Shown here one piece after another: positions 1 to 18,301 of a stretch of 64,000 nt of DNA. The notes beneath the pieces are model-generated. The model had not been told where the DNA came from, searched no databases, and saw only the letters and a program-made list of their open reading frames with translations. Each line of letters begins with the position of its first letter. Positions within the stretch are counted from its first letter, which is position 1. The stretch covers positions 53 to 64,052 of the forward strand of contig JACRCW010000017.1 of NCBI GenBank assembly GCA_016218805.1, read 5' to 3'. The stretch is from Deltaproteobacteria bacterium. GTDB lineage: Bacteria; Myxococcota; JACRCW01. The translations under genes were made by a program, and so were the position numbers.

Positions 1-99
1 ACCGCCAAAACACGCAACGTTCGATCTCTACACAATCCTATCGTACCAAATGCGCGAAATAATGCAACTTATTGTTTTCCGACTCCTAACCTCGACCCG

Positions 100-435
100 G
101 TGACCGGCGAACGACGGAGTGGCGCCAATCGGGGCGGCACCGACAAGGACTTGGCGATCGCCGGGATTGCGGTCGGTGGCGAAAGCGAGTGCCCCGATTC
201 AATCGCATTGCACGACCGGGAGAAGACGTGGGCGCACAGAAGGAAATCGCACCTCGACGAACCGTCCAGACACGCCCGCCGCCTGGGCCTGGATTCCAAG
301 GAGCGGAAGAGAATAGGGGCGGCCACCGTGCTCCCAAGCGGGCTTACCCTCGCGGAAACGCAGGCCTTGCTTGCGGCCGGGTACGTCGACGCCGAACGTC
401 GGCTTGCCGAACGTCGGGCGAGTAGCCGCGAGTAA
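100..435 (+). CDS. Hypothetical small protein (island cargo)
   Basis: The ORF has acceptable codon bias and no recognisable motif. Confidence 0.25.
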   Translation: MTGERRSGANRGGTDKDLAIAGIAVGGESECPDSIALHDREKTWAHRRKSHLDEPSRHARRLGLDSKERKRIGAATVLPSGLTLAETQALLAAGYVDAERRLAERRASSRE

Positions 436-532
436 TCGCGCCGCGGATCCATTACTCGCGGTTTTCGGGCTCCTGCGCGCGTGGTTGTCTGCATGCGCCG
501 GCACGCACCAAGCGCGCCGCGGAGACACGCCC

Positions 533-763
533 ATGACCAGCAACCCGCAGACCACGGACCGCGCCGCCCTCGTCGAGGCCGGGCTTATTTCAATCGAACA
601 GGCTTGCGAGCTGTCCTCGCTGGGACGGACCACGATCTACGCAGCGATGACGACGGGTGAACTGCGCTTCGCCCGGATCGGCCGCGCCCGCCGCATTCCC
701 CGCCGCGCACTGCTGGACTGGCTCGCGGCGCACGTCGTCGGCGGTGAGCAGTCCGCCGCCTGA
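533..763 (+). CDS. AlpA/excisionase-family HTH DNA-binding protein
   Basis: The motif LISIEQACELSSLGRTTIYAAMTTGELRFARIGRARRI is typical of HTH_17/AlpA/Xis proteins. The gene sits directly upstream of the primase, as in P4-like and PICI elements. Confidence 0.6.
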   Translation: MTSNPQTTDRAALVEAGLISIEQACELSSLGRTTIYAAMTTGELRFARIGRARRIPRRALLDWLAAHVVGGEQSAA

Positions 764-855
764 TCCCCGCAGCGCGCCAGCCTTTCGAATCCGGCAGCGC
801 GCAACCCTGCCAAAAGAAAAGGCGCGGGGACAAGCCGCGCCAGAGGACAACCCGC

Positions 856-2454
856 ATGGACACATCTACTACGACGACGACGACGACGGCGCCACCCGGA
901 CCCGACGCTGCGGGCCGCGTCCCGCGCGAATCACGCTCGCCAGCGGACGACCACGTGCACGCGGGCCCAGGAGGGCACCTCACCGATCTGGGCATTGCCG
1001 ACCGGCTTGTGCGTCGTCGTGGTGCGGACATGCGCCACTGCGCCGCGCGGGGGCAATGGCTCCTTTGGGACGGCCACCACTGGCAACCCGATCAACGCGG
1101 GTGCGCCATCCGCTTTGCCGCGGAAGAAGCGCGCGCCGCCACGACGGAGGCCGCCCGCTCTGGCGCTGACGCGAGGGTGCTCGCCGCCGCGAAGCGGCAG
1201 GAGGCGCACGGCCGCGTCTTGGGCGCGCTCGCCCTGGCCGCAGTGCACCCGCTGATCGCCGTGACCGCCGCGGATTTGGACGTGGACTCATGGCTGCTGA
1301 ACGTGCAAAACGGAACGCTGGACCTCCGCAGCGGCACCCTGCGGCCACACCGTCGTGACGACCTGCTCACGCACATGCTGCCCTTTGACTTCGACCCAGT
1401 GGCCCCGTGCGCGCGATGGGACCGCTTCCTCCACGAGGTCATGGACGGCCGGCAGGACTTGGTAGCCTTCCTCAGGCGCTGGTTTGGCTACTGCCTTACC
1501 GCGGACGTGCGCGAGCACGCGATGCTTTTCCTTGTCGGCGACGGGCGCAACGGGAAAGGCTGCCTCGTCGAAACGATCCAGCACGTGATGGGCCCGCGCT
1601 TGACGGGCGCCGCTCCCGAAGGCCTGTTGCTCCAGCAGCACGGCGCTCGCCACCCTGCTGACGTTCAGTTTCTCGCCGGCCGGCGCTTGATAGTCGCCAG
1701 CGAGGTTCCACAGGGTGCGGCGTTCAACGAGGAGCGAATCAAGAAGTTGACGGGGGGTGACACGTTGAACGCGCGTGGTATGCGGCAGGACTTCGCGGAC
1801 TTCACGCCCACGCACAAGATCGTCGTGCAGGCGAACCATCACCCGCGCGTGCGGGATCAATCGGCGGCGTTGTGGCGTCGCATGCGCGTGGTGCCCTTTG
1901 ACGTCTCGTTTGCTGGGCGCGAGGACCGCGGGCTGAAGGCCGCGTTGTGTGCGGAGGCGCCGGGGATCCTCGCGTGGCTGGTGGCAGGCTGCTTGGAATG
2001 GCAGAAGCACGGCCTGGGCGAGCCGCTGGCAGTGGCCCAGGCCACGGCCGGCTACCGGGCCGACGAGGACTTCCTTGGCCAGTGGTCGGCGGACTGGCAG
2101 TCGCGGTACCCGACGGCGGGGGAAACGAAAGCCGCGGACCTGCATGCCGACCTCCGGGCGTGGTGCGAACATCAAGGCGAGCACCCGCCGCGCCAGCGCG
2201 ACCTTGCCCGGGAACTCCACCGCCTGGGGTGGGTTCATCACCCAACGGCCCGGCCGGTCGCATGGAGCCCGCCGCAGTCTGCGCAGGCTGCGCAGTCTGA
2301 TTTGTATGACGCGGCTACACGCGCGCGTAAGGGCGTCAATGGGGAACAGACTGCGGCAGCCTGCGAGACTGCGGAAACCTGTCCGTCGGTGTCCGCTGGC
2401 GTCCAAACAGCCCCTCGCCCCTGGCCGGCCGATCCGGCGGAGGCCAAGGCATGA
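856..2454 (+). CDS. Phage/plasmid primase, P4 family, with C-terminal SF3 helicase/NTPase domain
   Basis: A Walker A motif (LFLVGDGRNGKG) is followed by a D5_N/primase-C-like region. At 532 aa it has the size and layout of P4 alpha-like primase-helicases. Confidence 0.8.
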   Translation: MDTSTTTTTTTAPPGPDAAGRVPRESRSPADDHVHAGPGGHLTDLGIADRLVRRRGADMRHCAARGQWLLWDGHHWQPDQRGCAIRFAAEEARAATTEAARSGADARVLAAAKRQEAHGRVLGALALAAVHPLIAVTAADLDVDSWLLNVQNGTLDLRSGTLRPHRRDDLLTHMLPFDFDPVAPCARWDRFLHEVMDGRQDLVAFLRRWFGYCLTADVREHAMLFLVGDGRNGKGCLVETIQHVMGPRLTGAAPEGLLLQQHGARHPADVQFLAGRRLIVASEVPQGAAFNEERIKKLTGGDTLNARGMRQDFADFTPTHKIVVQANHHPRVRDQSAALWRRMRVVPFDVSFAGREDRGLKAALCAEAPGILAWLVAGCLEWQKHGLGEPLAVAQATAGYRADEDFLGQWSADWQSRYPTAGETKAADLHADLRAWCEHQGEHPPRQRDLARELHRLGWVHHPTARPVAWSPPQSAQAAQSDLYDAATRARKGVNGEQTAAACETAETCPSVSAGVQTAPRPWPADPAEAKA

Positions 2455-2488
2455 GCGCTCCCTCCTCAGCGGACGTTGACCGCGACAA

Positions 2489-3082
2489 ATGACCGCGGAG
2501 GGGGAAGCAACGCGCGCGTCCAGCGATACGGATCGCCCCGCACCCGGGGCAGAAGGTGGCACCATGACGACCACAAGGAGCCGGAAACGGCCGCAAATGG
2601 CAGGACGGCAGACCCGCGCGTTGTCCGCGCTGCTGAGCCACCACACGGTGGTTGCCGCGGCACGCGCCGCAGGTGTGGGTGAGCGGACGCTCCGCAGGTG
2701 GCTAGCGAGCGACGCCGCGTTCCAAGCAGAGTACCGCGCCGCGCTCCGGGACCTGGCGTCCCAGATCGCGCTGCGCCCCGTCGTCGCGTCTGAGACGGCG
2801 CTGGACGTGCTGACTGCGGTGATGGAAGACCCGGGCACACCTGCTTCGGTTCGCGTTGCCGCGGCAGGGAAGGTCATCGACGCTGCGCTGCGCATCATTG
2901 AGAAGGACGGAACGCTGAACGCGCACGCTGACGGGGCCGCGACGGTGCCCGCGATCACCGGTGAGTTGTCGCCGGGTGTTGAGCCGCCAAGCGAAGCGGA
3001 CGCCCACGGCACGGACACAGGTGCGGTGCACCAGCTGCCGTTGAATCCCCTGCGCCGTAGCCGGGCAGGTGGTGCCGAATGA
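2489..3082 (+). CDS. HTH protein with terminase-small-subunit-like N-terminal motif (paralog 1)
   Basis: The motif TVVAAARAAGVGERTLRRWLASDAAFQAEYRAA matches the TerS N-terminal HTH pattern (A.AGYS..TA......L.). Its stop overlaps the start of paralog 2. Confidence 0.5.
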   Translation: MTAEGEATRASSDTDRPAPGAEGGTMTTTRSRKRPQMAGRQTRALSALLSHHTVVAAARAAGVGERTLRRWLASDAAFQAEYRAALRDLASQIALRPVVASETALDVLTAVMEDPGTPASVRVAAAGKVIDAALRIIEKDGTLNAHADGAATVPAITGELSPGVEPPSEADAHGTDTGAVHQLPLNPLRRSRAGGAE

Positions 3083-3480
3083 AGCCCAATGATCCCTCCC
3101 CACAGCTGCCCCGCCGGCAGGAAGCCGCCCTGATGGCGTTGCTGGAGAGCCCCACGCTGAACGCGGCCGCAGCGAAGGCCGGGTGCAGCAAAGCGACGCT
3201 GCGCCGCGGGTTGGCCGAGGAGGCGTTCCTGGCGGCCTACCGAGCGGCTCGGCGGGAACTGATGGGGCACACCGCGGCACGCCTCCAAGCAAGCGCTGCC
3301 GAGGCGCTGGACGCATTGCGGGCCATCATCGCGGACGCGGATGCGCCAGCCGCCGCACGCGTCACCGCAGCGCGCACCGTGCTGGAGATGGCGACACGCA
3401 CCGCGGAAACGGAAGAACTGAGTGAGCGCGTGGCAAAGCTTGAAGCTGCCGCGCTAGCGACGGAGGAAACATGGGCATGA
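3079..3480 (+). CDS. HTH protein, terminase-small-subunit-like (paralog 2)
   Basis: The motif TLNAAAAKAGCSKATLRRGLAEEAFLAAYRAARRE is a paralog of the upstream gene. The two overlap by ATGA. Confidence 0.5.
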   Translation: MKPNDPSPQLPRRQEAALMALLESPTLNAAAAKAGCSKATLRRGLAEEAFLAAYRAARRELMGHTAARLQASAAEALDALRAIIADADAPAAARVTAARTVLEMATRTAETEELSERVAKLEAAALATEETWA

Positions 3481-3689
3481 AACAGAGGGTAGAAGCGCTT
3501 GAGCGCCGCGCACCGAAACCACAGGCGCGGATCCACTACGTCGTCCGGAAGGCCGACGATGACGACACGTGCCCACATTGCGAGCGCGAACAAGCCACCG
3601 GGGTGCCGCCTGGCAAGGTTGTGCACCTCACGTGCATCCGTCGCCGGGCCAGCGAAGTGCCGGCACGGCCGCCCGACGAGCAAGGGTGA
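3471..3689 (+). CDS. Small protein with a CxxC motif (possible zinc-binding)
   Basis: The ORF is 72 aa with a coiled N-terminus and a CPHCE...LTC motif. Its start overlaps the end of the upstream gene. Confidence 0.35.
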   Translation: MGMKQRVEALERRAPKPQARIHYVVRKADDDDTCPHCEREQATGVPPGKVVHLTCIRRRASEVPARPPDEQG

Positions 3690-4147
3690 TCGCTGCCGTT
3701 CGCGGCGGACAACTCGCAGTCACGGCAGCGGCGCGCACCCTGGATCAGCGCTCGACCTCGCGCTGTGGGCATGCGGCATCCTCGGCCGCTTCCTTGGCCG
3801 CCTTGCGGGCTGCCTCTCCATTCTTTCCGGCTGCCTCCTCCGCCTTGCGGGTTTGCTTTCTGCTCAACCTGCGCCTCGCACACCTCTCGATCGCGCCCCG
3901 TGTTCTCCCGTGTCCGCCATGCACTGACATACGTCCCGGCAGAGGATCTCCGGTTCCGGTGCTGTGGACGCGGATGCAGCAAGTCAGGACCGGGGCAGGC
4001 GAGTCACCGCGGCCGAAGTAGACAAAAAGCACCATAGGGCTACAGTGAATGCTGGGCCGCCGGGGATGGCCGCTCAAGCTACGGCCTAGGTCGCTATCCC
4101 TCAAGTTCCGTCACCAGCCCCATGGGACGGATGCAACGAAGGGTACG

Positions 4148-4762
4148 ATGGCCACCGCTGCCGATGCTTCTGCGTTCCTCTTGGAGATTCAGCTCCAGCT
4201 GGACACGTACAAGCTTCACAAGTTGCTGTACTATGCACAAGGTTGGCACCTCGCGTGGTACGGCGAGCCCCTCTTCTCTGACAGGCTCGAGGCATGGGTG
4301 AACGGCCCGGTTGCGCCCGGCGTCTTCCATGAAACGCGCGGACTCCGCGAGGTGCGTGCGGTGCCGAGTGGAGACGGATACGCGCTTACTGAATGGCAAC
4401 AGCGCACCCTCCGCGAAGTGATGCGCGTGTACGGGGCTTTCTCTGGCGCGGACTTGGCCGAGCTCACCCATCAGGAGCCGCCGTGGAAAGCCGCCCGGGC
4501 AGGCCTTCCGCCTGATGCGAGATCAGACGCGGAAGTCGAACGTGCCGCCATGAAGCAGTTTTTTGCAGGCCTAGCCGCCATTGGAGAGGAAAAGGGGCGC
4601 ATTCCGCAAGGCGTAGTGGTTGGACTGCTGGCCTGGGCGAACATGAAGACCACCGAGCGAATGGACTTGGCACACCAAGACTTCGTCGACGCCGACGCGG
4701 ACGCCTATGCAAGGTGGATGAACGACGGCGGTGATGAGCCGTGGCCCGAACCGCGCGCCTGA
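4148..4762 (+). CDS. Panacea-domain (DUF4065, SocA/PanA-like) antitoxin-type protein
   Basis: The motif KLHKLLYYAQGWHLAWYGEPLFSDRLEAWVNGPV matches the Panacea-domain signature. The start was chosen at the internal Met. Confidence 0.7.
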   Translation: MATAADASAFLLEIQLQLDTYKLHKLLYYAQGWHLAWYGEPLFSDRLEAWVNGPVAPGVFHETRGLREVRAVPSGDGYALTEWQQRTLREVMRVYGAFSGADLAELTHQEPPWKAARAGLPPDARSDAEVERAAMKQFFAGLAAIGEEKGRIPQGVVVGLLAWANMKTTERMDLAHQDFVDADADAYARWMNDGGDEPWPEPRA

Positions 4763-5022
4763 GCAGGGCGTTCATCCGGCAATGCCACGACCTCAGGTGC
4801 CATGATCCCTCATGCGCTGTCGCCATTGCCCAGGTGGTGCGCGACCTCTGCGCATCCGAGCCTCTTCCCGGGGTGGGCGACACCCGTGCGTTGATGCCCC
4901 CGGTGGTGCACTGCCACGCACGTGCCCTCGAAACGCATTTTCGTTGGTTGCTCTACGAGTTCGATGACGAGCACGTTCACTTCCTTGGCATTAGCAGCAC
5001 CGACCCTTCGCCCAGGCAGTGA
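4741..5022 (+). CDS. ParE/RelE-fold toxin candidate, overlapping the Panacea gene
   Basis: A 22-nt overlap with the upstream gene is typical of toxin-antitoxin operons. The C-terminus RWLLYEFDDEHVHFLGI resembles the ParE/RelE (R.vYrVdde...V.iLrI.H) pattern, and codon bias is good. Confidence 0.4.
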   Translation: MARTARLSRAFIRQCHDLRCHDPSCAVAIAQVVRDLCASEPLPGVGDTRALMPPVVHCHARALETHFRWLLYEFDDEHVHFLGISSTDPSPRQ

Positions 5023-5549
5023 TTCCCTGGCTCCAAGCGGCTGGCGGATTCCCCGCCGCGCCCCGGGCGGGAAGCGCAGCCACGCCGCTGTTTCCTGCGC
5101 GTTGACGACGGCGGGCGTGCGCTTGTTTCCGCCGAGCGCGTGGACGCGGAGTTGGTGGACGATGTGGCGTCCCACGCAAGGTGAGACGTCGCCCGATGGG
5201 GACCCGCAGTCGCTGCCCGTCTATGCGCCGACAGTGACGGTGACCGCGTCGGGCGGCACCACTGCCTGAACGCCGCGCGCGTCTACGATTCGCACCCAGC
5301 CGAGGGCACCCCGTGCCAGCACTGCTATCTGGGCGCATCCGCGCGTGCGCGCCAGTTCCTCCAGGTGAAAATCTCCAGTGTGCGGATTGTTCCCGTCGGT
5401 CGGTCTGATGCGCCAAGCCAGGCACGGGTGAAGGCGTGCTCTTACCATCTGTCGTCGTCCTCTCTTGCGGGCGTTGCCGCAATCGGAATCCTACCTCGCC
5501 AGGCCTGAACAGCAAGAGGCGTCGATCAACTGGCCGCCCACGGTGCGCG

Positions 5550-6092
5550 CTACTTGACCACCTCCCGCTCGCGAGGCGTGGCGTTCTCTCCCTTGCGCTG
5601 GTCCTTCCACTTCTTGGCGCGTTCGCGTTCCACCTCCACCTCGCACACTTCCTGCTCCTGCCCGGTCTGGTCCATGCAAACCTTGACGTCATGATCGACC
5701 TGGGGTTCGTCGTCTTGGACCGGCGGCCGGTCGCTTCGGCGCTGGTAGTAGTCCGGGACCGGTGGTGCCTTCGGTGCGGTGAAGCGGGCGTCCAAACCGG
5801 TGTAGCCCAGCCGCACCAGCACGATGCCGATTCCGAGGACAGCGGCGCACGCCACGCACAAACCGACGAGCGCGGCGATGGGCAGGAGCCCCACGACCGC
5901 GCCGACGTAGGCTGTGGTGCCCACTGTTGGCGCCAAGGACACGGCAGCGGCAACCCCCACCAGCGCGCCGATGGCGGCGCCAGCCAAGCCTACCAGCCCT
6001 CCCGCGAGCCCGAATCCTCCCCACGTCGTGAACGCCGCGCCGAATGCCAGCTGCACCGCGGCCATTGCGACGTCGACTGATCCGGTCTCCAT
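5550..6092 (-). CDS. Glycine-zipper membrane protein with a charged C-terminal tail
   Basis: The N-terminus contains GGFGLAGGLVGLAGAAIGALVGVAAAV, a 2TM glycine-zipper motif. The C-terminus is acidic and basic. The start was chosen at an internal Met. Confidence 0.5.
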   Translation of the reverse strand: METGSVDVAMAAVQLAFGAAFTTWGGFGLAGGLVGLAGAAIGALVGVAAAVSLAPTVGTTAYVGAVVGLLPIAALVGLCVACAAVLGIGIVLVRLGYTGLDARFTAPKAPPVPDYYQRRSDRPPVQDDEPQVDHDVKVCMDQTGQEQEVCEVEVERERAKKWKDQRKGENATPREREVVK

Positions 6093-6415
6093 GCTGACCC
6101 CCGAGGTTGAACGCGGCCGGATGCTGCCGCGGTTCCGCGCTCCCGTCGACGTGCCGCACGTGCGACGCATGCTGACGCTGGCAAACGCTGCGCGCCGCGG
6201 CGGCAAACGTGTCGCGCCGTTCTCCGCCTCGGGGCTGAACGGCCATTCACCCGCTCGGGAAACGCGCTGCATGACGTATCCCATCCCCACGCATTGCCAG
6301 TCTGTCACGTCGTGCCCTGCCCCGGCTGTTACGGCGGGAACCCGCTGTAACGGATCTTGCCCGGGCGTGTCGCTTTGTGGTTGACGATGGGACGCAGCGT
6401 AATACACTGGGACGC

Positions 6416-7096
6416 ATGGAAACCCGCACCGTTGCCTACATCCGCGTGTCCACCGACAAGCAGGCCGACAAGGGCGTGAGCCTGGAGGCCCAGCGGGCGA
6501 AGGTGGAGGCCTACGCCACCCTCTACGATCTGGACATCGTGGACGTGGTGGTGGACGCGGGCGTTTCCGCCAAGACGCTGGACCGGCCGGGGCTCAACCG
6601 TGCGCTGGGGATGCTCAAGTCCGGCGCGGCTGACGCGCTGCTGGTGGTGAAGCTGGACCGCCTCACCCGCAGCGTCGTGGACCTTGGGACGCTGGTGGAC
6701 GCCTACTTCGCGGCGGGCAAGTGGGCGCTTCTGTCCGTGGGTGAGCAGATCGACACCCGCAGCGCCGCGGGCCGTCTCGTCCTCAACGTGCTGGCCAGCG
6801 TGAGTCAGTGGGAGCGCGAAGCCATCGGGGAGCGCACCAGCGCGGCGATGCAGCACAAGGCGTCACAGGGCGAGTACACCGGCGGTGGGGCGCCGTACGG
6901 CTTCCGCGTGGCGGCGGACGGCGTGCACTTGGACGAGGAACCCGCGGAGCAAGCGGTGCTTGATGAAGCACGCGCCCTGCGCGCCGCGGGGTTGTCCCTG
7001 CGCGCGGTGGCGGCGGAACTGGATCGGTTGGGCATGCGGTCTCGCGTGGGAAGCCCCTTCGCCGCTGTGCAGGTGGCGCGGATGGTGGCGGCATGA
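6416..7096 (+). CDS. Serine recombinase (resolvase/invertase family)
   Basis: The N-terminus VAYIRVSTDKQ carries the catalytic Ser motif, and there is a resolvase fold with a C-terminal HTH. Confidence 0.85.
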   Translation: METRTVAYIRVSTDKQADKGVSLEAQRAKVEAYATLYDLDIVDVVVDAGVSAKTLDRPGLNRALGMLKSGAADALLVVKLDRLTRSVVDLGTLVDAYFAAGKWALLSVGEQIDTRSAAGRLVLNVLASVSQWEREAIGERTSAAMQHKASQGEYTGGGAPYGFRVAADGVHLDEEPAEQAVLDEARALRAAGLSLRAVAAELDRLGMRSRVGSPFAAVQVARMVAA

Positions 7097-7440
7097 CGGC
7101 GCGGCCGGTGGACCTGGACGCGGTGCGCGCGTCGCGGAAGCGCCTGCGCGCCCTGGCGGCGGCGCACCCGCAGCTGCGCGGCGAGCCCGGCGCGAACAAC
7201 GTGAGCGGATGGGAAGCAACCCTGGCGACGGAGGAAGCACGAATGGCGACGCAACAGGTTGGGATCAGGCTGCCGGAGGAACTGGTGGCGCGGCTGGACC
7301 AGCACGTTGAGCGGATGCGCGCGGCGCAGCCAGGCCTTGAGGTGACCCGCGCGGATGCTGTGCGGGTGCTCCTGACCAAGGCGCTGGACGCGGAGGGCGG
7401 CAAGCCCGCGGCAAGGACCAAGAAGGGGACCCGCCCATGA
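7093..7440 (+). CDS. Ribbon-helix-helix (CopG/Arc-like) DNA-binding protein
   Basis: The motif VGIRLPEELVARLDQHVERMR...TRADAVRVLLTKAL is RHH-like. It shares ATGA overlaps with both flanking recombinase genes. Confidence 0.6.
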   Translation: MTARPVDLDAVRASRKRLRALAAAHPQLRGEPGANNVSGWEATLATEEARMATQQVGIRLPEELVARLDQHVERMRAAQPGLEVTRADAVRVLLTKALDAEGGKPAARTKKGTRP

Positions 7441-8570
7441 CCCGCGCGCGGCGTGGGCGCGGCGAAGGCGGCGTCTACCAGCGCCCGGACGGACTTTGGT
7501 CTGCGCAGCTGTCGCTTGGGTACGACGGGAACGGCGGTCGCCTCCGCCGCACGCTCTACGGGCAGTCCAAGCGGGACGTGCAAGCGAAACTGCGCGCCCT
7601 TCAGACGGACGCTGACGTGGGAACGCTTGTCGCCCCGGAGCGGCTCACCGTTTCGCAGTTTCTGTCGCGGTGGCTGGACTCGGCCAAGCAGACGATCCGG
7701 GCGACAACCGCTGCGCGGTACCGCGCCCTCATCCGCGTCAGCGTGGGCCCGCACATCGGCGGCATTCCTGTGCAGAAGCTCCAGCCGCTGCAGGTCCAGG
7801 CGCTCTACGCCAAGCTGGAAGCTGCGGGGCTCGCGCCCTCAACACGTCGTCAGGTGCACGCCATTCTGCACCGTGCGTTTGCCCAGGCGGTCCGGTGGGG
7901 GAACATGGTCCGCAATCCCTGTGACGCCGTGGACAAGCCACGCGTGCCCAAGCACCGGGTTGACGCACTGAAGCCAGAGGAGGTGGCGAAGCTCGCGGAG
8001 GCTGCCAGCGGGGACCGCCTCGCGGCGCTGTACGTGCTCGCCCTCTCAACGGGGATGCGGCAGGGCGAACTGCTGGGCTTGCAGTGGTCGGACGTGGATC
8101 TCCCTGGGCGCGCCGTTGTCGTGCGGCACTCGCTGGAGGAAATCGCGGGCAAGCTGCGCCTGTCCGAAACCAAGTCCGGGAAGGTGCGTCGCGTTGACCT
8201 GGACGCGCACACCGTGGATGCGCTGCGGGAGCACCGGAAGCGCATGCTGGCGGAGGGTCACCCGGGGCCCTGGGTCTTCCCGGACACGGAGGGGAACCCG
8301 CTGCGCAAGTCCAACCTCGTCCGCCGGTCCTTCAAGCCGCTGCTGAAGCGCGCCGGGCTGCCGGACATCCGCTTCCACGACCTGCGCCACGCGGCTGCCA
8401 CGCTGATGCTCCTGCAGGGCGTCAACCCGAAGGTGGTCCAGGAGCGCCTTGGGCATGCGCAGCTAACCATCACGCTGGACGTCTATGGTCACGTCCTGCC
8501 CACCATGCAGGCCGACGCGGTGGCGAAGATGGACGCCTTTTGGCGGAGCGCGGCAGTTACTACTGCCTAA
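7437..8570 (+). CDS. Tyrosine integrase (phage integrase family)
   Basis: The protein has an N-terminal SAM-like domain and a C-terminal catalytic domain with R...HDLRHAAATLML...Y. It reads towards the tRNA fragment. Confidence 0.9.
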   Translation: MTRARRGRGEGGVYQRPDGLWSAQLSLGYDGNGGRLRRTLYGQSKRDVQAKLRALQTDADVGTLVAPERLTVSQFLSRWLDSAKQTIRATTAARYRALIRVSVGPHIGGIPVQKLQPLQVQALYAKLEAAGLAPSTRRQVHAILHRAFAQAVRWGNMVRNPCDAVDKPRVPKHRVDALKPEEVAKLAEAASGDRLAALYVLALSTGMRQGELLGLQWSDVDLPGRAVVVRHSLEEIAGKLRLSETKSGKVRRVDLDAHTVDALREHRKRMLAEGHPGPWVFPDTEGNPLRKSNLVRRSFKPLLKRAGLPDIRFHDLRHAAATLMLLQGVNPKVVQERLGHAQLTITLDVYGHVLPTMQADAVAKMDAFWRSAAVTTA

Positions 8571-8693
8571 CTACTGCCAATGGGGCGGAAAGTGGCGAAC
8601 CGCGGCGGTTGGTGGCGGATGCGTGGCCCGTCCGGTTGACGTCGTCAGCGAACGCGTGCGGCCGTCCGCGGCAGAAAGCGGAAACCCGCCCGT

Positions 8694-8740
8694 TCGGACT
8701 CATAATCCCTAGGTCGGCGGTTCGATTCCGCCCCCCGCTA
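8694..8740 (+). other. Partial tRNA 3' fragment (anticodon loop CTCATAA with CAT, T-arm GGCGG-TTCGATT-CCGCC, acceptor 3' strand). Candidate att core of the island.
   Basis: The T-arm is canonical, but no matching 5' acceptor or D-arm could be found, so this is not a complete tRNA. Integrating elements produce exactly this kind of partial 3' copy. Confidence 0.45.
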
Positions 8741-9085
8741 CACAGGAATCCATCGCATCCAGGTTCAATGCAGTCGCCGCGCCGGGGCCAGCCCGGGGCG
8801 GTGACCTTTCATCCGCACGCGGGTTGGGTTGCCCGCGGTTCTCACGGCGGGCGGAACCCAACGCCGCGCTTCATTCACCATGAAATCCCGGTGGCGGCTT
8901 CTCATGCCTTCTGCTAGTTTCACCCCATTCGCCGCGGGCTCGTGGGCAGACCGCTCCAGCGTGGCGACGGAAAGGGGACCGATCATGCGTGCCGCCGCCA
9001 TCACGTACGCCGTGACCGCCCCGTCCGTTCGCTCCTGAGCGTCGACGGAAACCTGCAAGGAAAGCCGTAGAGCGGGCGCCACAGA

Positions 9086-9520
9086 GTGGTGCCCCGCGGA
9101 GTGTTTCCAACAATGGGTTCCCACCAGAAACGGCCGGAGCGTCCGCTCCCGGCTGACGCCGTCCATGATGACGACGGCGTCGATCCCCGTGTGTATTTCT
9201 CGCGTGAATCACACCGCCGGAGTGTCCGGCGGGACGGGCAGGTGTGCGCCACTGCCTTTCGCGTGCTTTCCCTGGTGCTGGACGGTGAGGTCCAGGACCC
9301 CGTCCTGGGAGATTGCGCTGTTGACGAAGTCACGGTGGACGGCGGAGGAAAGCTGCGCGTGCGCATCCGGGTGCCAGATGCGGCCCGCGTGGCAGAGGCC
9401 CGGGAGCGGCTGCGTCGCCTGGAGGGGTGGCTGCGGTCCGCTGTGGCCGCGGCGCTGGTCCGCAAACGGGCCCCGGTGCTGGCGTTTGACGTGGTGCCCC
9501 AAAGCGGGGTGGCGCCATGA
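9086..9520 (+). CDS. Hypothetical protein upstream of and overlapping rtcB
   Basis: Codon bias is good from about 9240 onwards. The stop overlaps the rtcB start. No motif was recognised, and the protein does not look like archease. Confidence 0.4.
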   Translation: MVPRGVFPTMGSHQKRPERPLPADAVHDDDGVDPRVYFSRESHRRSVRRDGQVCATAFRVLSLVLDGEVQDPVLGDCAVDEVTVDGGGKLRVRIRVPDAARVAEARERLRRLEGWLRSAVAAALVRKRAPVLAFDVVPQSGVAP

Positions 9521-10638
9521 GCGCGGAGCAGCATGTCTGGGCATGCGCTCCCTTGCCGGACGACGTGCAGCGCGCGCTGGAACTCATCCGCAACACGGAG
9601 GGCGTGTGCCACGTGGCGGTCATGCCGGACGTCCACCGTGCCGAAGACGTCTGCGTGGGAACCGTGGTGGGCACCGCCGACGTGGTCATTCCCGCCGCCG
9701 TCGGAGCGGACATCGGTTGCGGGATGGCGGCGATCCGGTTTGACGTGGATGCCGGATGCATCCGCGACGAACGCACCGCCGCGCGCGTTCTTGCGTTGCT
9801 CAACGCGCGGGTCCCCGGTCTGCACCACGCATCACGCTCCCGCCCCGTCCTCCCGCCTGAGGTGCTGGCAGCGGAGCTGAGCCACGCGTCGCTCCGCAAG
9901 CAGGCGCAAAGAGACGGGGTGCTGGAGTTCGGCACGCTGGGGCGCGGCAACCACTTCCTGGAGTTGCAGGCTGACGACGATGGCCTGCTGTGGCTGATGG
10001 TGCACAGCGGATCCCGCGCCATGGGACCGGAGATCCTCCGTCACCATCTGGCGGCGAGCCGGATGACCACCACCGGGCTGCGCGTCATCAACGCCGGCGC
10101 AGCGGAACCTTATCTGCAGGACGTCCGGTGGGCGCTGGCGTACGCGCATCACAGCCGGGCGTACATGCTCCAGGTGGTCACGGACATCCTGGGTTCCCTC
10201 GTCGGGGCCGCGGCAGACCCGGCCACGCTGATCACCTGCGAGCACAACCATGTGCGACAAGAGGAGCACCGGGGCCGGTTGCTGTGGGTGCATCGCAAGG
10301 GCGCCATGTTCGCGGGAGCCGGGGTGGCTGGCGTCATCCCCGGCTCCATGGGGTCCTCAAGCTTCCACGTCCAGGGACGCGGGTGTGAGGACGCGTTGTG
10401 CTCAAGCTCCCACGGCGCGGGCCGGGCCATGAGCCGCAGCCAGGCACGGCGGGCCGTCACCCTCCGCGCGCTGGAGGACCAGCTGCGGGGCGTGCACTTT
10501 GACCACCGTCTGGCCCTGCGCCTGCGGGATGAAGCGCCCGCCGCCTACAAGGACATCTCCGCCGTCATGCGCGCGCAACGCGAGTTGGTGCGCGTGGTCC
10601 GGAGGCTGCGACCGCTGCTCAGCTACAAGGCCGCCTAG
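9517..10638 (+). CDS. rtcB: RNA 3'-phosphate/5'-OH ligase RtcB
   Basis: The RtcB metal-binding blocks HVAVMPDVH, GNHF, CEHNH and HGAGR are all present. Confidence 0.85.
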   Translation: MSAEQHVWACAPLPDDVQRALELIRNTEGVCHVAVMPDVHRAEDVCVGTVVGTADVVIPAAVGADIGCGMAAIRFDVDAGCIRDERTAARVLALLNARVPGLHHASRSRPVLPPEVLAAELSHASLRKQAQRDGVLEFGTLGRGNHFLELQADDDGLLWLMVHSGSRAMGPEILRHHLAASRMTTTGLRVINAGAAEPYLQDVRWALAYAHHSRAYMLQVVTDILGSLVGAAADPATLITCEHNHVRQEEHRGRLLWVHRKGAMFAGAGVAGVIPGSMGSSSFHVQGRGCEDALCSSSHGAGRAMSRSQARRAVTLRALEDQLRGVHFDHRLALRLRDEAPAAYKDISAVMRAQRELVRVVRRLRPLLSYKAA

Positions 10639-10687
10639 CCAGCTTGGGGACGTGGTGACCCCCATCACGCGCCGCCGCAGGAAACGC

Positions 10688-10827
10688 GTCCGGATAGGGG
10701 GGACGGGCCTTCCGGATAGGGGGGAAGGCCATTCCGGATAGGGTTTGGGCCTTCCGGATAGGGGGGGAAGTGCTTCCGGATAGGGGGGGGACACGTTCCG
10801 GATAGGGGGGCCGCACCCTCCGGATGC
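10688..10827. repeat. Tandem direct-repeat array: 6-7 copies of TCCGGATAGGGGGG(G) at about 21-bp spacing
   Basis: The copies begin at 10689, 10711, 10732, 10752, 10774 and 10795, with a partial copy at 10820. The array lies between convergent gene ends (rtcB and the HEAT-like gene). Confidence 0.85.
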
Positions 10828-10885: not shown

Positions 10886-12331
10886 TCACGGTCCCGCTTG
10901 CTGGGGCCAACTGCTGCGCGCGTCGGACCACCAGGCGCGCCACAACCGGGCCACGTCCCGGCGCTCGGCGCGGGTGGCTTTGGCGTCAAACACCATGGGC
11001 TGACCGGTCAACTGGTGCAGGTCACGCACCGCGGTGCGAGCCAAGTTGCCGTCCGTGCCATCCAGCGCGGCAATGAGCCAGTCAATCCGGGTGAGCGCGC
11101 CGGAGCGTGCGTACCAGCGCTGCCAGGCCCGCGCCGCCCGTCCGGCATCCTGGCAAGTGATCTTGGTCAAGGCGTCATGCGCCTCATCCCCCAGCGGGCC
11201 GGACAGCAGGCCAATGAGCGGTTTCACCCACGCGGCCTCGTGGATCAGTGCCGCGGCGCGCACGGCGGCAAGCTGCAACCGCTCATCGCCTGACGCGGCA
11301 CCTTGGGCCAGCGCGGCAATCACGCTGCGCGCGGCGGCCGCCTGTTCAGGCCCGCGCGCGGTCATCTGCCCCAACATGTTCGCGGCCGCGTAGGCAATGC
11401 GCGGCTCGTCGTCGGCAAGGAACTGCGCGCACAGGACGGCCACGGCAGGCAGACGGGTCTGGTCAGCCATCAGCACCGCCACGAACCTGGCGGAGCGGTC
11501 CGCGTGCCCCACCCCCGCGGCCACCGCCAGCACGGCGGCGTCTTCGCCCAGGCGGCCCAGCGCGTGGGCCACGGCGCTCAACTCCGCCACGGTCCGGCGC
11601 GGGGCGTCATCCACAAACACATCCCGCAGCAACCGGCCCGGGAAGCGGCGCAACAGTTCGGCGGCGGCGCAGCCGCGGTGCGCCAGCAACCGGCTGGCCA
11701 GCGCTTCCGGGTCCGCGTTCCCCGCGGCAAGGCGTTCCACCAGCGGACCCAGTTCCGGGTCCACCGGCGTGGCCACCAGGCGGGCGACGCACGCGCGCAA
11801 TTCGTCCGCGTCCAGGTGCGGAGCCTGCTCCAGCAGCGCGTCCAACTCGGCCGGCGCAGTGCGCGGCCCTGCGGGCACCGCGTCAGGCTGGTCCCATGCG
11901 GGCGGTGGCGGCGGTGGTGGTGGCGGCGGTGGTGGTGACAGCGGTGGTGGTGACAGCGGTGGCGGTGACGGCGGCGGCGGCGGCGGTGATGGCGGCGGTG
12001 GCGGCGGCGTGGCGGGGGACCGGGGAGGCGGCCCGAGTGCTGCGGGAGGCGGGCCGTCCAGCATGGCGCGTACCTGCTGCGTGAACTCCGCCGGCGCGTT
12101 GGAGATGAGGACCATGGCCACGCCTTCCCGGACGGACAGGACCTTGCCCTGCACCTCCGCCTGGGGAGCTTCCGCAGACAACGCAAACCGCAGCTTGAGA
12201 AACCCCCGGGCGGCCGGCGACCCGCGCACGGGGATGGGCCCGGCGTCGATTCTGCTCATGAACGCAGCCAGCGCCTCGCGGTTGGGAAACCGCACGACAC
12301 CCTGCTCATCCATCTGCGGGAGGTCATCCAT
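10886..12331 (-). CDS. Proline-rich linker protein with a C-terminal HEAT/ARM-like alpha-helical repeat domain
   Basis: A long poly-Pro tract (PPPPPPSPPPPPPSPPPLSPPP...) is followed by helical repeats. The start was chosen at MDDLPQM; the longer ORF reaches 12487. Confidence 0.55.
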   Translation of the reverse strand: MDDLPQMDEQGVVRFPNREALAAFMSRIDAGPIPVRGSPAARGFLKLRFALSAEAPQAEVQGKVLSVREGVAMVLISNAPAEFTQQVRAMLDGPPPAALGPPPRSPATPPPPPPSPPPPPPSPPPLSPPPLSPPPPPPPPPPPPAWDQPDAVPAGPRTAPAELDALLEQAPHLDADELRACVARLVATPVDPELGPLVERLAAGNADPEALASRLLAHRGCAAAELLRRFPGRLLRDVFVDDAPRRTVAELSAVAHALGRLGEDAAVLAVAAGVGHADRSARFVAVLMADQTRLPAVAVLCAQFLADDEPRIAYAAANMLGQMTARGPEQAAAARSVIAALAQGAASGDERLQLAAVRAAALIHEAAWVKPLIGLLSGPLGDEAHDALTKITCQDAGRAARAWQRWYARSGALTRIDWLIAALDGTDGNLARTAVRDLHQLTGQPMVFDAKATRAERRDVARLWRAWWSDARSSWPQQAGP

Positions 12332-12625
12332 GGTTTCCGCCGTCGGTGTTTCTGCACACAGTACGTTGGGGCGCGGAATCCTGCCTGCCCTCCGGCGTTT
12401 CAGCAACGGGGCGCGTGGGTCCACGTCGTCCGGTGCGGGAAGGCGGCCGCGCCACCTTCTGTGCGAGCTGATACGCGCGGCCTGCACAGGCCATCCGTCC
12501 GTGAAGACGTCAAATCGCTGCGGGCATGGCTACAAAGTGGTTGAGACCCATTCGGCCGAGGCTCCGGGCGCCACGGCCGCCTGCACGGTCCAGCGGGTCG
12601 CAGCCATGGGCGGGGAGGTGCGCAC

Positions 12626-15751: not shown

Positions 15752-16534
15752 TCACATCCCGGCCAGCGCGTTCGCCAGCTCTGCGGCGTGGCTCTTCTGG
15801 ATGTTGTGACCGCCGATGGGCCAGCTCAGGCGCGGCCCGGCGGGCACAGCGGCCGCCAGCGCCCGGGCGATCTCCGGTTCAATGAACGGGTCATCCTCCG
15901 CAAACGCCACCAGCGTGGGCAGCCGGAGTTCGGCCACGGCGCGGTGCACCGGCTCAAACGAGAACACGCCCAGCACGCGCAGCGTCTGGGCCACCTCCTC
16001 CGGCGAGGTGCTGGCGGGGAAGCCCGACGCGCGGAAAGCGCGCTGCGCCACGCGCCGCAGCACCGGGCCGGCCACCGGCACATCCACCGCGCGGCCCATC
16101 CACGTGCGGCCGGCGGCGCGGCGCAGCAGGCGGTGCGGTGTCAGCCCCACGGACGCCAGCAGCCCCAGCGCGCGCACGCGCCCGGGCGCGCGGGACGCCG
16201 CCGCCAACGCCACGGGGCCGCCCATGGAATGGCCAATGAGCACCGCGTCCCGCAGTTCCAGCGCCTCCAGCGCGGCCACCACAAAGTCCGCGCGCGCGTC
16301 CACCGTGGTCGCCGCCAGCTCCGCCGGCGTCCCGCCAAACCCCGGCAGGTTGAGGCGCACAAACCGGCAGCGCGGCTCAAGGCCGGCCCCCAGGTGGCGG
16401 AAGTCCCGCGCGCTGCCGGGCATCCCGTGCACCGCCACCACGGCCGGGCCCTGCCCCACGTCCGTGTAGAAGAACCGCCCGCCGTGCACGGACGCGGTGC
16501 GCGGTTCTGGGTCGGACGGCGGACCGGGGTTCAT
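15752..16534 (-). CDS. Alpha/beta-fold hydrolase
   Basis: The nucleophile elbow GHSMGG and the HGMPGS motif are present. The start coordinate is uncertain by about 1 nt. Confidence 0.8.
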   Translation of the reverse strand: MNPGPPSDPEPRTASVHGGRFFYTDVGQGPAVVAVHGMPGSARDFRHLGAGLEPRCRFVRLNLPGFGGTPAELAATTVDARADFVVAALEALELRDAVLIGHSMGGPVALAAASRAPGRVRALGLLASVGLTPHRLLRRAAGRTWMGRAVDVPVAGPVLRRVAQRAFRASGFPASTSPEEVAQTLRVLGVFSFEPVHRAVAELRLPTLVAFAEDDPFIEPEIARALAAAVPAGPRLSWPIGGHNIQKSHAAELANALAGM

Positions 16535-16992: not shown

Positions 16993-17085
16993 TCGTCAGC
17001 CCGCAGGCGAATCCCGCTCCAACGGAAACACTCAGCCAATGCTCACCACCAGGCATTGGGACGCCCAGCCACAACCTGAGTTTCT

Positions 17086-17862: not shown

Positions 17863-17974
17863 TTGAAACGCCCTCCCGCCCTTTCTGCGGCGAGCATGAT
17901 GACGAGGAATTGCCTCTGTCAACAGCCTGCGGTGCAAGTAGGAGCCGTTTGAACCCGTCGAACGCCACCCCATC

Positions 17975-18192: not shown

Positions 18193-18301
18193 CGCTCCAA
18201 CCGCCCCGGGTTTGCGGCTCCCCGCGGTGGCCCCACCCAATGAACGCCCGTGACCAAATCCTGTTCCCCTCAGCGGCCTCCTGGACCAGGGCCGCTATCA
18301 C

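What the first reader, a model, noticed from the sequence alone, without database searches (positions are those of the whole stretch)
1..8745. Phage-satellite-like integrative island in a myxobacterial chromosome
The island looks like a primase/replication module plus TerS-like HTH paralogs without a terminase large subunit or structural genes. It also carries three site-specific recombination genes in one overlapping operon (serine recombinase - RHH - tyrosine integrase) next to an att-like tRNA 3' fragment. That layout is what P4-like and PICI-like satellites look like, and such elements are barely described in Myxococcales. The mixed serine/tyrosine recombinase operon is itself unusual.
Basis: partly seen in the sequence, partly recalled or inferred. 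Interest (0 to 1): 0.75.

Follow-up and report, generated by a model that had tools for sequence, protein, structure and literature searches.

The report
tRNA-Met island with twin small terminases
A mobile island sits at the end of a tRNA-Met gene in an uncultured bacterium's chromosome; it carries its own excision, replication and two phage DNA-packaging "small terminase"-like genes but no capsid, tail or large-terminase genes in the part we can see, so it is most likely a PICI-like phage parasite (satellite), though this is not proven.

Summary
The described features are in the sequence. On the + strand lie an excisionase-family HTH gene (533-763) and a D5_N/SF3 helicase (856-2454), which has no primase domain. 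Next come two translationally coupled TerS-like paralogs (2489-3082, 3079-3480) plus a 72-aa Zn-ribbon gene, then a Panacea antitoxin-type gene. An ATGA-overlapped operon follows: short serine recombinase, RHH protein, tyrosine integrase (6416-8570). The island ends in a 50-nt tRNA-Met(CAU) 3' fragment (8696-8745).

The TerS call holds. Family members hit only TerS PHROGs and TerS PDB entries. In two unrelated phage contigs a homolog overlaps the large-terminase gene.

In five other contexts homologs sit alone in small islands, three of them next to tRNA genes. One is a complete 11.7-kb island with no structural genes.

Caveats:
- The intact tRNA and left end are not in the window, which probably starts at a contig end. 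Structural genes further left cannot be excluded.
- No close relative genome exists for an empty-site comparison.
- "Myxobacterial" is unverified; NCBI names the MAG "Deltaproteobacteria bacterium".
- The RHH protein is not a recombinase.

Verdict: a real integrative island, probably a PICI-like satellite (about 0.5). It is a new variant of a known kind and of moderate interest.

The parts
383..461 (.). Non-coding repeats upstream of the first gene: two exact 12-nt direct repeats GCCGAACGTCGG (391-402, 406-417) and a 36-nt imperfect palindrome (426-461). Candidate operator, origin or arm-type sites; function inferred only.
   Evidence: sequence
533..763 (+). Excisionase-family HTH protein (76 aa; NCBI MBI5493750.1). 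By position it is the AlpA/Xis analogue at the head of the replication-packaging gene string.
   Evidence: Pfam HTH_17 1.2e-11; TIGR01764 'excise' 5.6e-12, above cut-off; PHROG 66 excisionase/regulator
856..2454 (+). D5_N + SF3 helicase (532 aa), a 'P4-family primase C-terminal' type. It has no primase catalytic domain. Presumed replication initiator/helicase.
   Evidence: Pfam D5_N 3e-32 and DUF5906; TIGR01613 8.6e-78; it matches only the C-terminal half of primase PHROGs; 32-36% identity to phage primase/helicases
2489..3082 (+). TerS-like paralog 1 (197 aa from ATG 2489; NCBI and Logan aa from ATG 2564; MBI5493752.1, HY904_01930).
   Evidence: PHROG 4044/3218/1482 TerS, 3e-8 to 5e-4; Pfam Sf6_terminase 0.037; homologs overlap TerL in phage contigs
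3079..3480 (+). TerS-like paralog 2 (133 aa). Its start overlaps the stop of paralog 1 (ATGA).
   Evidence: 49% identity to paralog 1. AF2 model pLDDT 91.5: three-helix HTH plus two long helices. Foldseek top hit 2ao9. Family profile's top PDB hits are TerS. 43% identity to the positional TerS of L010.
3471..3689 (+). 72-aa CxxC...HxxC Zn-ribbon-like protein, overlapping the end of paralog 2 by 10 nt. It is conserved next to the TerS-like pair in locus L056.
   Evidence: 40% identity to the 79-aa ORF between the two TerS-like genes of L056
4049..4762 (+). SocA/Panacea-domain protein (antitoxin-type). The real start may be ATG 4148.
   Evidence: Pfam SocA_Panacea 2.5e-19; PHROG 1281 6.8e-32; promoter-like site 4019-4046
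4741..5022 (+). Possible partner toxin (93 aa), overlapping the end of the Panacea gene. Weak evidence; not called in the Logan gene set.
   Evidence: Pfam YoeB_toxin 0.045 only; a RelE/ParE-like C-terminal motif seen by eye
5550..6272 (-). 240-aa membrane protein with two long hydrophobic stretches. It is the only minus-strand gene. Cargo of unknown function.
   Evidence: no Pfam, PHROG or PADLOC hit
6416..7096 (+). Short serine recombinase (226 aa from ATG 6416; 239 aa from GTG 6377). It has the catalytic domain plus the first ~50 residues of a large-serine-recombinase 'recombinase' domain. No zinc-ribbon or coiled-coil domain.
   Evidence: Pfam Resolvase 1.6e-36; CcrB positions 8-227 of 542, 5e-31; TP901-1 integrase catalytic domain 2.6e-23; promoter-like site 6381-6408; similar length in L015 (231 aa) and L057 (236 aa, 41% identity)
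7093..7440 (+). RHH (CopG-type) DNA-binding protein (115 aa), ATGA-overlapped with both neighbours. Candidate directionality factor or repressor.
   Evidence: Pfam RHH_1 4e-4, at the cut-off; PHROG 4738 transcriptional repressor 4.5e-6; junctions
7437..8570 (+). Tyrosine integrase (377 aa; MBI5493758.1).
   Evidence: Pfam Phage_integrase 2.7e-30, Phage_int_SAM_3, Phage_int_M; large family with 6027 hits at E<=1e-30
8560..8695 (+). Presumed P arm between the integrase gene and the att core. It contains a direct repeat CTACTGCC (8560-8567, 8571-8578).
   Evidence: role inferred
8696..8745 (+). tRNA-Met(CAU) 3' fragment (anticodon loop to acceptor 3' end, plus 3 nt). Presumed att core at the right junction (attR).
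   Evidence: the k=31 Logan contig L009 starts exactly at 8716, so the assembly graph branches at the last 30-mer of the fragment

Best explanation
This is the right-hand 8.7 kb, possibly nearly all, of a site-specific integrative island inserted in the 3' half of a tRNA-Met(CAU) gene. It most likely lives as a PICI-like phage satellite.

Proposed cycle (all steps inferred):
1. A helper phage triggers expression of the excisionase-family HTH protein.
2. That protein, with the tyrosine integrase and probably the integrase-overlapping RHH protein, excises the island by recombination between the tRNA-derived repeats.
3. The D5_N/SF3 helicase drives replication of the circle. It uses host priming, because no primase domain is present.
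4. The short serine recombinase resolves multimers or provides a second recombination activity.
5. The coupled TerS-like pair, with the small Zn-ribbon protein, binds the island's own packaging site. It recruits the helper's large terminase, so island DNA is packed into helper capsids.
6. After transfer the integrase re-inserts the island at tRNA-Met and restores the tRNA.

The Panacea/toxin pair and the membrane protein are stabilising or anti-phage cargo. What is shown: gene content, gene couplings, the tRNA fragment, the homologies and the comparative contexts. Every functional step is inferred.
For: Integration:
- The integrase reads into a 50-nt tRNA-Met 3' fragment.
- GC3 is 0.81 in the island against 0.90 in the chromosome.
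- The sequence to the right is ordinary chromosome: RtcB, DnaE, RecN, PGI.
- The k=31 assembly graph branches exactly at the end of the fragment.

TerS identity:
- 12 of 17 family members hit TerS PHROGs, and no other annotated PHROG function appears.
- The family profile's top PDB hits are TerS: 7joq, Sf6 gp1 and 6w7t.
- The confident AF2 model shows an HTH plus a two-helix hairpin, and its Foldseek top hit is 2ao9.
- Homolog P0002 (42-43% identical) overlaps TerL in phage contigs L010-L014.
- A second homolog overlaps a Terminase_3 TerL in phage record MT836267.1.

Satellite-like layout:
- No TerL follows the TerS-like genes here.
- The same is true in L015, a complete 11.66-kb island bounded by 19-bp tRNA-Leu repeats, with a resolvase, HTH_17 and an integrase.
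- It is also true in L056, which carries both paralogs plus the Zn-ribbon gene at 56/56/40% identity.
- It is also true in L057, L060-63 and L064, the last abutting tRNA-Phe.
- The gene string HTH/AlpA-like, replication, TerS, and the visible size (8.7 kb, 11-12 genes) fit the published PICI description. That description gives five core functions, a 9.5 kb median and 15 proteins (PMC10085698).
Against: - The left end is unseen, so TerL or structural genes could lie beyond position 1.
- An integrase relative (54% identical) sits at the same end of a real prophage that has a GpA-type TerL (L058).
- The family is very large: 24,721 clusters at 50% identity. Many top hits are single proteins with two tandem modules, which is not a known TerS format and could point to a regulator.
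- No capsid-remodelling gene, helper phage, pac site or excision evidence was found.
- No homolog was found in IMG/VR with the one pattern tried.
Confidence: 0.5

Rival explanations
1. It is the integrase-proximal end of a full-size (or decaying) temperate prophage. The terminase large subunit and the head, tail and lysis genes lie to the left of the window, and the TerS-like genes are the phage's own.
For: - The left boundary and the intact tRNA are not in the window.
- The window probably begins at a contig end. This is inferred from the independent k=31 contig breaking at window position 60.
- Integrase relative L058 sits in a prophage with Prim-Pol, ParB-methylase and GpA TerL within 10 kb, in the same orientation.
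Against: - In both phage contexts of this family the TerS gene overlaps TerL. Here the TerS pair is followed by a 72-aa gene, a 360-nt gap and a Panacea gene.
- About 530 nt of non-coding DNA precede the first gene.
- L015 is a complete 11.7-kb island of similar content without structural genes.
Confidence: 0.2
2. It is an autonomous integrative (possibly mobilisable or merely cryptic) island with no phage dependence. The 'TerS-like' proteins are HTH DNA-binding regulators or replication/partition accessories that only share ancestry with small terminases.
For: - Pfam gives only generic or transposase-type HTH hits for most members.
- The family is huge and mostly unannotated.
- Fused two-module proteins are common among top hits.
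- Five of the seven distinct contexts sampled lack TerL.
Against: - The only annotated PHROG functions hit are TerS or terminase.
- TerS structures lead the PDB hits ahead of TetR-type HTH proteins.
- Homologs hold the TerS position in two phages.
- No relaxase, coupling protein or other transfer gene was seen in the visible part.
- A lone TerS is the hallmark of the PICI type (PMC10085698).
Confidence: 0.2
3. It is a defective remnant of a mobile element, fixed in the chromosome and no longer mobile.
For: - Only a tRNA fragment is seen, not a whole tRNA.
- The stretch 4763-5549 is poorly coding and of lower GC.
- The serine recombinase looks like a truncated large serine recombinase.
Against: - All core ORFs are intact and translationally coupled.
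- The short recombinase length is conserved in L015 and L057, so it is not a recent truncation.
- Only one SNP separates two independent assemblies over 7.6 kb.
- The assembly graph branches at the att end.
Confidence: 0.1

Closest known systems
PICI (phage-inducible chromosomal islands, e.g. SaPIs and the E. coli/Pasteurella PICIs), as defined in PMC10085698
   Same: It is a site-specific integrase island of about 9 kb. It has an AlpA/MerR-like HTH regulator at the head of a replication gene, followed by its own small-terminase gene(s). The visible part has no TerL, tail or lysis genes. Accessory or defence cargo follows the terS genes.
   Different: - No capsid-morphogenesis gene.
- Two coupled TerS paralogs plus a Zn-ribbon gene instead of one terS.
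- The replication protein lacks a primase domain.
- The integrase lies at the far end, co-oriented and read toward att, inside an operon with a serine recombinase and an RHH protein.
- The host is an uncultured 'Deltaproteobacteria' MAG, whereas more than 99.9% of catalogued PICIs are in Proteobacteria or Firmicutes.
- No helper phage or induction data exist.
PICMI (phage-inducible chromosomal minimalist islands of Vibrionaceae; PMC10803314)
   Same: It has the minimal core of integrase, AlpA-type HTH and a P4-type primase/helicase-family replication gene. A small gene overlaps the integrase gene by ATGA, as 'iolg' does in PICMI, where that gene is required for excision.
   Different: - PICMIs carry no terminase gene and package as concatemers.
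- They are about 6 kb and defined in Vibrionaceae.
- The overlapping gene here is an RHH protein that lies upstream of int, and it is itself overlapped by a serine recombinase gene.
P4-like satellites
   Same: Integrase, an AlpA-like HTH protein and a D5_N/P4-family helicase module. Integration at a tRNA gene (P4's tRNA target is recalled from memory).
   Different: - No Psu, Sid or Delta homolog.
- The integrase lacks the P4-type Arm-DNA-bind_3 domain.
- P4 has no TerS and uses cos sites (from memory).
Phage small terminase subunits (Sf6 gp1, PDB 7joq and 6w7t TerS; B. cereus prophage protein 2ao9)
   Same: An N-terminal three-helix HTH followed by a two-helix hairpin of the oligomerisation type. 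These are the top profile and fold hits. Homologs sit directly upstream of TerL in two phage contigs.
   Different: - Sequence similarity is remote (E about 0.006-0.04 against PDB).
- No TerL is adjacent here.
- The proteins occur as a paralog pair, and elsewhere as fused tandem modules.
- No Pfam or NCBIfam model covers the family.

Membership tests
PICI (PMC10085698 definition) | Integrase | tested here: met
   Tyrosine integrase 7437-8570, Pfam Phage_integrase 2.7e-30
PICI (PMC10085698 definition) | Regulation module homologous to alpA, merR or stl | tested here: inconclusive
   533-763 is HTH_17 / TIGR01764 excisionase family. It is not a hit to Phage_AlpA PF05930. Its position ahead of the replication gene matches alpA.
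PICI (PMC10085698 definition) | Primase-replicase module | tested here: met
   D5_N + P4-family primase C-terminal helicase. Caveat: the primase catalytic domain is absent.
PICI (PMC10085698 definition) | Capsid-morphogenesis gene | tested here: not met
   No Pfam or PHROG head/capsid hit in any ORF of 1-8745. This component is also missing from many accepted PICIs (Type B).
PICI (PMC10085698 definition) | Small terminase subunit without a large terminase | tested here: met
   Two TerS-like genes and no TerL in the visible part. Remote homology is backed by position in phages.
PICI (PMC10085698 definition) | No tail, holin, portal or connector genes in the element | tested here: inconclusive
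   None in 1-8745, but the left end of the element is outside the window.
PICI (PMC10085698 definition) | Helper-phage-induced excision, replication and packaging | not testable with these tools
   Needs reads, lysates or experiments.
P4-like satellite | Psu, Sid, Delta (capsid-size and transactivation genes) | tested here: not met
   No such hits in Pfam or PHROGs.
P4-like satellite | P4-type integrase and alpha primase-helicase | tested here: not met
   The integrase has Phage_int_SAM_3 and not Arm-DNA-bind_3. Only the helicase half of an alpha-like protein is present.
PICMI (PMC10803314) | int + integrase-overlapping gene + alpA + prim, with no packaging genes, in Vibrionaceae | tested here: not met
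   Analogues of all four core genes are present. But the island carries TerS-like genes and comes from a different phylum-level lineage.
tRNA-integrated genomic island | Integrase plus a tRNA 3' fragment as one of two direct repeats, the other inside an intact tRNA gene | tested here: inconclusive
   The integrase and the 50-nt tRNA-Met fragment are present. The second copy is not in the window. The graph branch at 8716-8745 is indirect support.
Small terminase subunit (TerS) | N-terminal HTH plus helical oligomerisation core | tested here: met
   AF2 model pLDDT 91.5: helices 12-23, 27-34 and 38-46, then 48-85 and 91-132. Foldseek top hit 2ao9. TerS lead the PDB profile hits.
Small terminase subunit (TerS) | Ring oligomer that binds pac DNA and activates TerL | not testable with these tools
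   Biochemistry or multimer modelling is required.
Large serine recombinase (integrase type) | Catalytic domain + recombinase domain + zinc-ribbon/coiled-coil domain (about 450-600 aa) | tested here: not met
   Only 226-239 aa. It matches CcrB positions 8-227 of 542 and the TP901-1 catalytic domain. The Pfam Recombinase domain match is only 1-49 of 102, at E 0.071.
Panacea (PanA) toxin-antitoxin pair | Panacea-domain antitoxin with an adjacent toxin gene | tested here: inconclusive
   The Panacea domain is clear (2.5e-19). The overlapping 93-aa ORF has only a YoeB_toxin hit at 0.045 and no PADLOC hit.

The most novel reading that the evidence does not exclude
The twin TerS-like genes belong to a very large protein family with no Pfam or NCBIfam model (about 12,660 clusters at E<=1e-10). 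Its members occur as single genes, coupled gene pairs or fused two-module proteins. The reading is that this family marks an undescribed, widespread class of tRNA-integrated phage satellites in poorly cultured phyla. The database names of the nearest integrase and RtcB homologs suggest Planctomycetota, Chloroflexota and Myxococcota-like lineages. In this class a hetero-oligomeric or pseudo-dimeric small terminase would redirect a helper phage's large terminase.
Probability: 0.25. Interest if true: 0.7.

Novelty: new variant of a known kind. Interest (0 to 1): 0.45.

Why it matters
Catalogued phage satellites come almost entirely from Proteobacteria and Firmicutes. If this island is a satellite, PICI-type parasitism extends to an uncultured high-GC 'deltaproteobacterial' lineage.

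It would also supply a concrete marker for finding more such elements in metagenomes. The marker is a lone or twin TerS-like gene of a large unannotated family, usually followed by a small ORF and often next to a tRNA gene.

The paired or fused TerS format is a testable structural question: do these proteins form hetero-oligomeric terminase rings? The serine recombinase-RHH-integrase operon is a tidy case for studying how two recombinase types cooperate in one small element.

If it is only the end of a prophage, the finding is ordinary.

Tried and rejected
- Second copy of the tRNA fragment in the window: none, with up to 3 mismatches.
- Fetching sequence left of position 1: exact-protein look-ups returned only short Logan contigs (L001 = window 60-7702, L009 = 8716-10761).
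- Genome contigs and metagenome-contig scans with the helicase: best relatives are 43-44% identical, none carries the TerS-like genes, and the source genome is absent.
- Empty-site comparison through RtcB homologs: the closest are only 54-60% identical, so no usable relative exists.
- Integrase relatives (L058, L059) integrate elsewhere, not at tRNA-Met.
- IMG/VR scan with the TerS-like alignment: the single pattern gave no confirmed relative.
- Megablast of the island against GenBank phages and PLSDB plasmids: no match. tblastn of paralog 2 against phages: no match.
- PADLOC defence models: nothing meaningful.
- Rfam: only a sub-threshold ryfA hit inside the RtcB gene, judged spurious.
- Invertible-segment idea for the serine recombinase: no convincing inverted repeats in 3600-6500.
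- Shared arm-type motifs between the left non-coding region and the P arm: none of 10 nt or more.


Full report
**Observation**

The window is high-GC DNA (about 70%). From about 9.5 kb rightward it is ordinary chromosome: RtcB, a DUF2330 protein, DnaE, RecN, PGI, an amidase and a histidine kinase. Chromosomal genes have GC3 of about 0.90. The genes in 533-8570 average 0.81, which fits foreign origin.

ARAGORN finds no tRNA gene anywhere in the 64 kb. Positions 8696-8745 nevertheless read as the 3' half of a tRNA-Met(CAU): anticodon loop CTCATAA, variable loop, T arm GGCGG-TTCGATT-CCGCC and acceptor strand CCCCGCT-A. Aligned with a tRNA-Met found in another locus, 8692-8742 is 38/51 identical, while the 32 nt upstream are at background level, 10/32. 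The fragment is unique in the window.

**Source of the window**

Exact-sequence look-ups show the window comes from an NCBI metagenome-assembled genome named 'Deltaproteobacteria bacterium'. Relevant identifiers are locus tag HY904_01930 for paralog 1, proteins MBI5493750.1/52.1/58.1, a contig of 91,956 nt, and run SRR12113407. The myxobacterial label is not verified. The nearest homologs of the flanking RtcB and of the integrase are only 54-60% identical and carry Planctomycetota, Chloroflexota or 'Deltaproteobacteria' names.

**Anatomy (all + strand unless noted)**

- 533-763: excisionase-family HTH (Pfam HTH_17, TIGR01764).
- 856-2454: D5_N + DUF5906 / P4-family 'primase C-terminal' SF3 helicase. 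It aligns only to the C-terminal half of phage primase profiles, and D5_N starts at residue 48, so there is no primase domain.
- 2489-3082 and 3079-3480: two HTH paralogs, 49% identical over 74 aa, joined by an ATGA overlap.
- 3471-3689: a 72-aa CxxC...HxxC protein overlapping the second paralog by 10 nt.
- 4049-4762: after a roughly 360-nt gap, a SocA/Panacea-domain protein (2.5e-19). An overlapping 93-aa ORF is at best weakly toxin-like (YoeB 0.045).
- 5550-6272 (-): a 240-aa membrane protein with no family hit.
- 6416-8570: a tightly coupled operon.
  - A short serine recombinase (226-239 aa). Its best matches are the N-terminal parts of large serine recombinases: CcrB 8-227 of 542 and the TP901-1 catalytic domain.
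  - An RHH protein.
  - A tyrosine integrase.
  - Both junctions are ATGA overlaps.
- Upstream of the first gene, about 530 nt are non-coding and carry two exact 12-nt direct repeats and a 36-nt palindrome.

**Boundaries**

For a + strand tRNA, the displaced 3' fragment marks the right junction, and the intact gene must lie to the left of the element. It is not in the window, so the left end is unseen.

Two independent observations bear on this. First, the k=31 Logan contig L009 begins exactly at 8716. Its first 30 nt are the last 30 nt of the tRNA fragment. The assembly graph therefore branches precisely where an att repeat would end. That is expected if the same sequence also occurs in an intact tRNA-Met, an empty site or an excised circle. 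It could also be explained by any second identical tRNA-Met gene in the sample.

Second, the Logan contig covering the island (L001, one SNP in 7.6 kb) breaks at window position 60. A break this close to a randomly chosen window start would be unlikely. I therefore infer that the window starts at the end of the MAG contig. If so, the left junction is missing from the public contig as well. This is an inference, not a result.

**Are the HTH paralogs small terminases?**

Pfam alone gives only generic HTH hits and a weak Sf6_terminase match. Evidence beyond Pfam:

- Paralog 1 hits three TerS PHROGs, down to 3e-8.
- Across 17 family members, the only annotated PHROG functions hit are 'terminase small subunit' or 'terminase'. 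Up to 12 of 17 members match a single TerS family.
- A profile of the family finds TerS chains first in the PDB (7joq, Sf6 gp1, 6w7t; E 0.006-0.04), ahead of TetR-type HTH proteins.
- The AlphaFold model of paralog 2 is confident (pLDDT 91.5). It shows a three-helix HTH followed by two long helices.
- The Foldseek top hit is 2ao9, a B. cereus prophage protein (prob 1.0, E 0.04). From memory, this protein is regarded as a nonameric small terminase.

Position is the most telling evidence. The closest non-self homolog (P0002, 42-43% identical to both paralogs) overlaps the start of a Terminase_6 large subunit in five related phage-like contigs, arranged integrase, TerS, TerL and a 501-aa ORF. In GenBank phage record MT836267.1, a 117-aa homolog overlaps a Terminase_3 large subunit. 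The family therefore includes genuine positional small terminases.

**Comparative contexts**

In the other contexts sampled, homologs are not followed by TerL and sit among small genes.

- L015 is a complete 11.66-kb island. It is bounded by 19-bp direct repeats of the tRNA-Leu 3' end. It carries an HTH_36 Rep-like gene, one TerS-like gene, a 231-aa resolvase, HTH_17 and an integrase overlapping the tRNA, and it has no structural genes.
- L056 carries orthologues of both paralogs (56% identity each) and of the Zn-ribbon protein (40%), in the order paralog 2, Zn, paralog 1. The triplet is therefore a conserved module.
- L057 has a TerS-like gene, a 77-aa gene and a 236-aa resolvase that is 41% identical to the window's.
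- L060-63 and L064 are further small-gene contexts. L064 ends about 200 nt from the 3' end of tRNA-Phe.

An exhaustive profile search shows the family is very large:

| E-value cut-off | Clusters at 50% identity |
|---|---|
| 1e-3 | 24,721 |
| 1e-10 | 12,660 |

About 43 of the best 150 hits are single proteins with two tandem modules. Neither paralog matches any NCBIfam model, and the family gets only generic HTH or weak terminase matches in Pfam.

Helicase relatives (at most 44% identical) lie in integrase islands, two of them at tRNA-Met, but without TerS-like genes. The integrase family is huge. It serves both a real prophage (L058, with GpA TerL) and a defence island (L059).

**Interpretation**

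That this is an integrative island is close to certain. The best reading is a PICI-like satellite with self-encoded excision/integration, replication and packaging specificity, and no visible TerL or virion genes. The visible size and gene count (8.7 kb, 11-12 genes) match the published PICI median of 9.5 kb and 15 proteins. Four of the five PICI core functions are present (PMC10085698).

The RHH gene's ATGA overlap with int recalls the 'iolg' gene of PICMIs, which is needed for excision (PMC10803314). The short serine recombinase recurs at a conserved length in L015 and L057. It is therefore a functional short form, most plausibly a multimer resolvase. I found no inverted repeats that would suggest an invertible segment.

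I put this reading at about 0.5. The rivals are:

| Rival | Confidence | Main basis |
|---|---|---|
| Integrase end of a prophage whose structural genes lie left of the window | 0.2 | Left end unseen; L058 precedent |
| Phage-independent island whose TerS-like proteins are regulators | 0.2 | Fused tandem modules and the family's size |
| Inert remnant | 0.1 | Only a tRNA fragment is seen; argued against by intact coupled ORFs |

**Comparison and novelty**

It is not P4-like: there is no Psu, Sid or Delta, and the integrase is not P4-type. It is not a PICMI, because it has TerS-like genes and comes from a different lineage. It is not a cfPICI, because no capsid genes are visible.

It works like a PICI but departs from the family in several ways:
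- gene order, with the integrase at the far end in an operon with a serine recombinase and an RHH protein;
- twin TerS genes plus a Zn-ribbon gene;
- a helicase without a primase domain;
- the host lineage.

Two full-text searches found no description of satellites in myxobacteria or of this architecture. I rate it a new variant of a known kind. Its interest is moderate and would rise if the left end proves short and the TerS-like family turns out to mark a broad satellite class.

Noticed in passing
proteins P0262-P0407, sequences: The TerS-like module (about 125 aa: HTH plus two helices) defines a very large family, 24,721 clusters at E<=1e-3. Pfam gives the sampled members only generic HTH or weak terminase hits, and the window's two paralogs hit no NCBIfam model. 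About 43 of the 150 best hits are 260-350-aa proteins with two tandem modules, and one 909-aa protein has 11 matched stretches.
   Followed up: partly
L015:8070-19747: A complete 11.66-kb island bounded by 19-bp direct repeats of the tRNA-Leu(CAG) 3' end. It carries an HTH_36 Rep-like gene, one TerS-like gene, an ion-channel gene, a 231-aa resolvase, HTH_17 and an integrase whose 3' end overlaps the tRNA. It has no structural genes.
   Followed up: partly
L008:1-45 and 12359-12403: A 12.4-kb Hyphomonas MAG contig encoding a helicase relative starts with a 45-nt tRNA 3'-end sequence that recurs 8 nt before its end. This suggests an island flanked by att repeats, or a circular or tandem assembly.
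   Followed up: partly
window 10689-10825: A tandem array of a 22-nt G-rich unit (TCCGGATAGGGGGGAAGGGCCT, about 5.6 copies) lies in the intergenic region just downstream of RtcB. The Logan contig L009 ends inside it.
   Followed up: no
window 16500-18500 (array at 17967-18180): A low-GC patch (0.62-0.65 against about 0.71) contains a 22-nt tandem repeat (ACCCGAGCAGGCGTCCAGCGGT, about 9.8 copies). The period is not a multiple of three. Neighbouring ORFs (16531-16992 on the - strand, 18302-18946 on the + strand) have no Pfam hit. This may be another foreign insertion.
   Followed up: no
window 7673-7702 and 60-89: The k=31 Logan contig covering the island ends at these 30-mers, one inside the integrase gene and one in the left non-coding region. 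That implies the metagenome holds another sequence sharing these stretches, perhaps a related island variant with the same ends and a different interior.
   Followed up: no
window 10886-12487 (-), repeat at 11901-12015: A 533-aa protein with a long proline-rich tract (PPPPS/PPLS repeats, encoded by a 15-nt GGC-rich tandem repeat) and a weak HEAT-repeat hit. It is chromosomal and unrelated to the island.
   Followed up: no
window 9682-9792: A sub-threshold Rfam ryfA match (25.8 bits against a gathering score of 80) lies inside the RtcB coding sequence. Judged spurious.
   Followed up: yes
L064:1612-2059: Four tRNA genes (Phe, Gly, Ala, Leu) on the minus strand were mis-called as a 164-aa ORF in the source gene set. 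A small island carrying a lone TerS-like gene ends about 200 nt from the tRNA-Phe 3' end, with rpsO and a 610-aa gene cut by the contig end (not scanned here, presumably pnp) beyond.
   Followed up: partly
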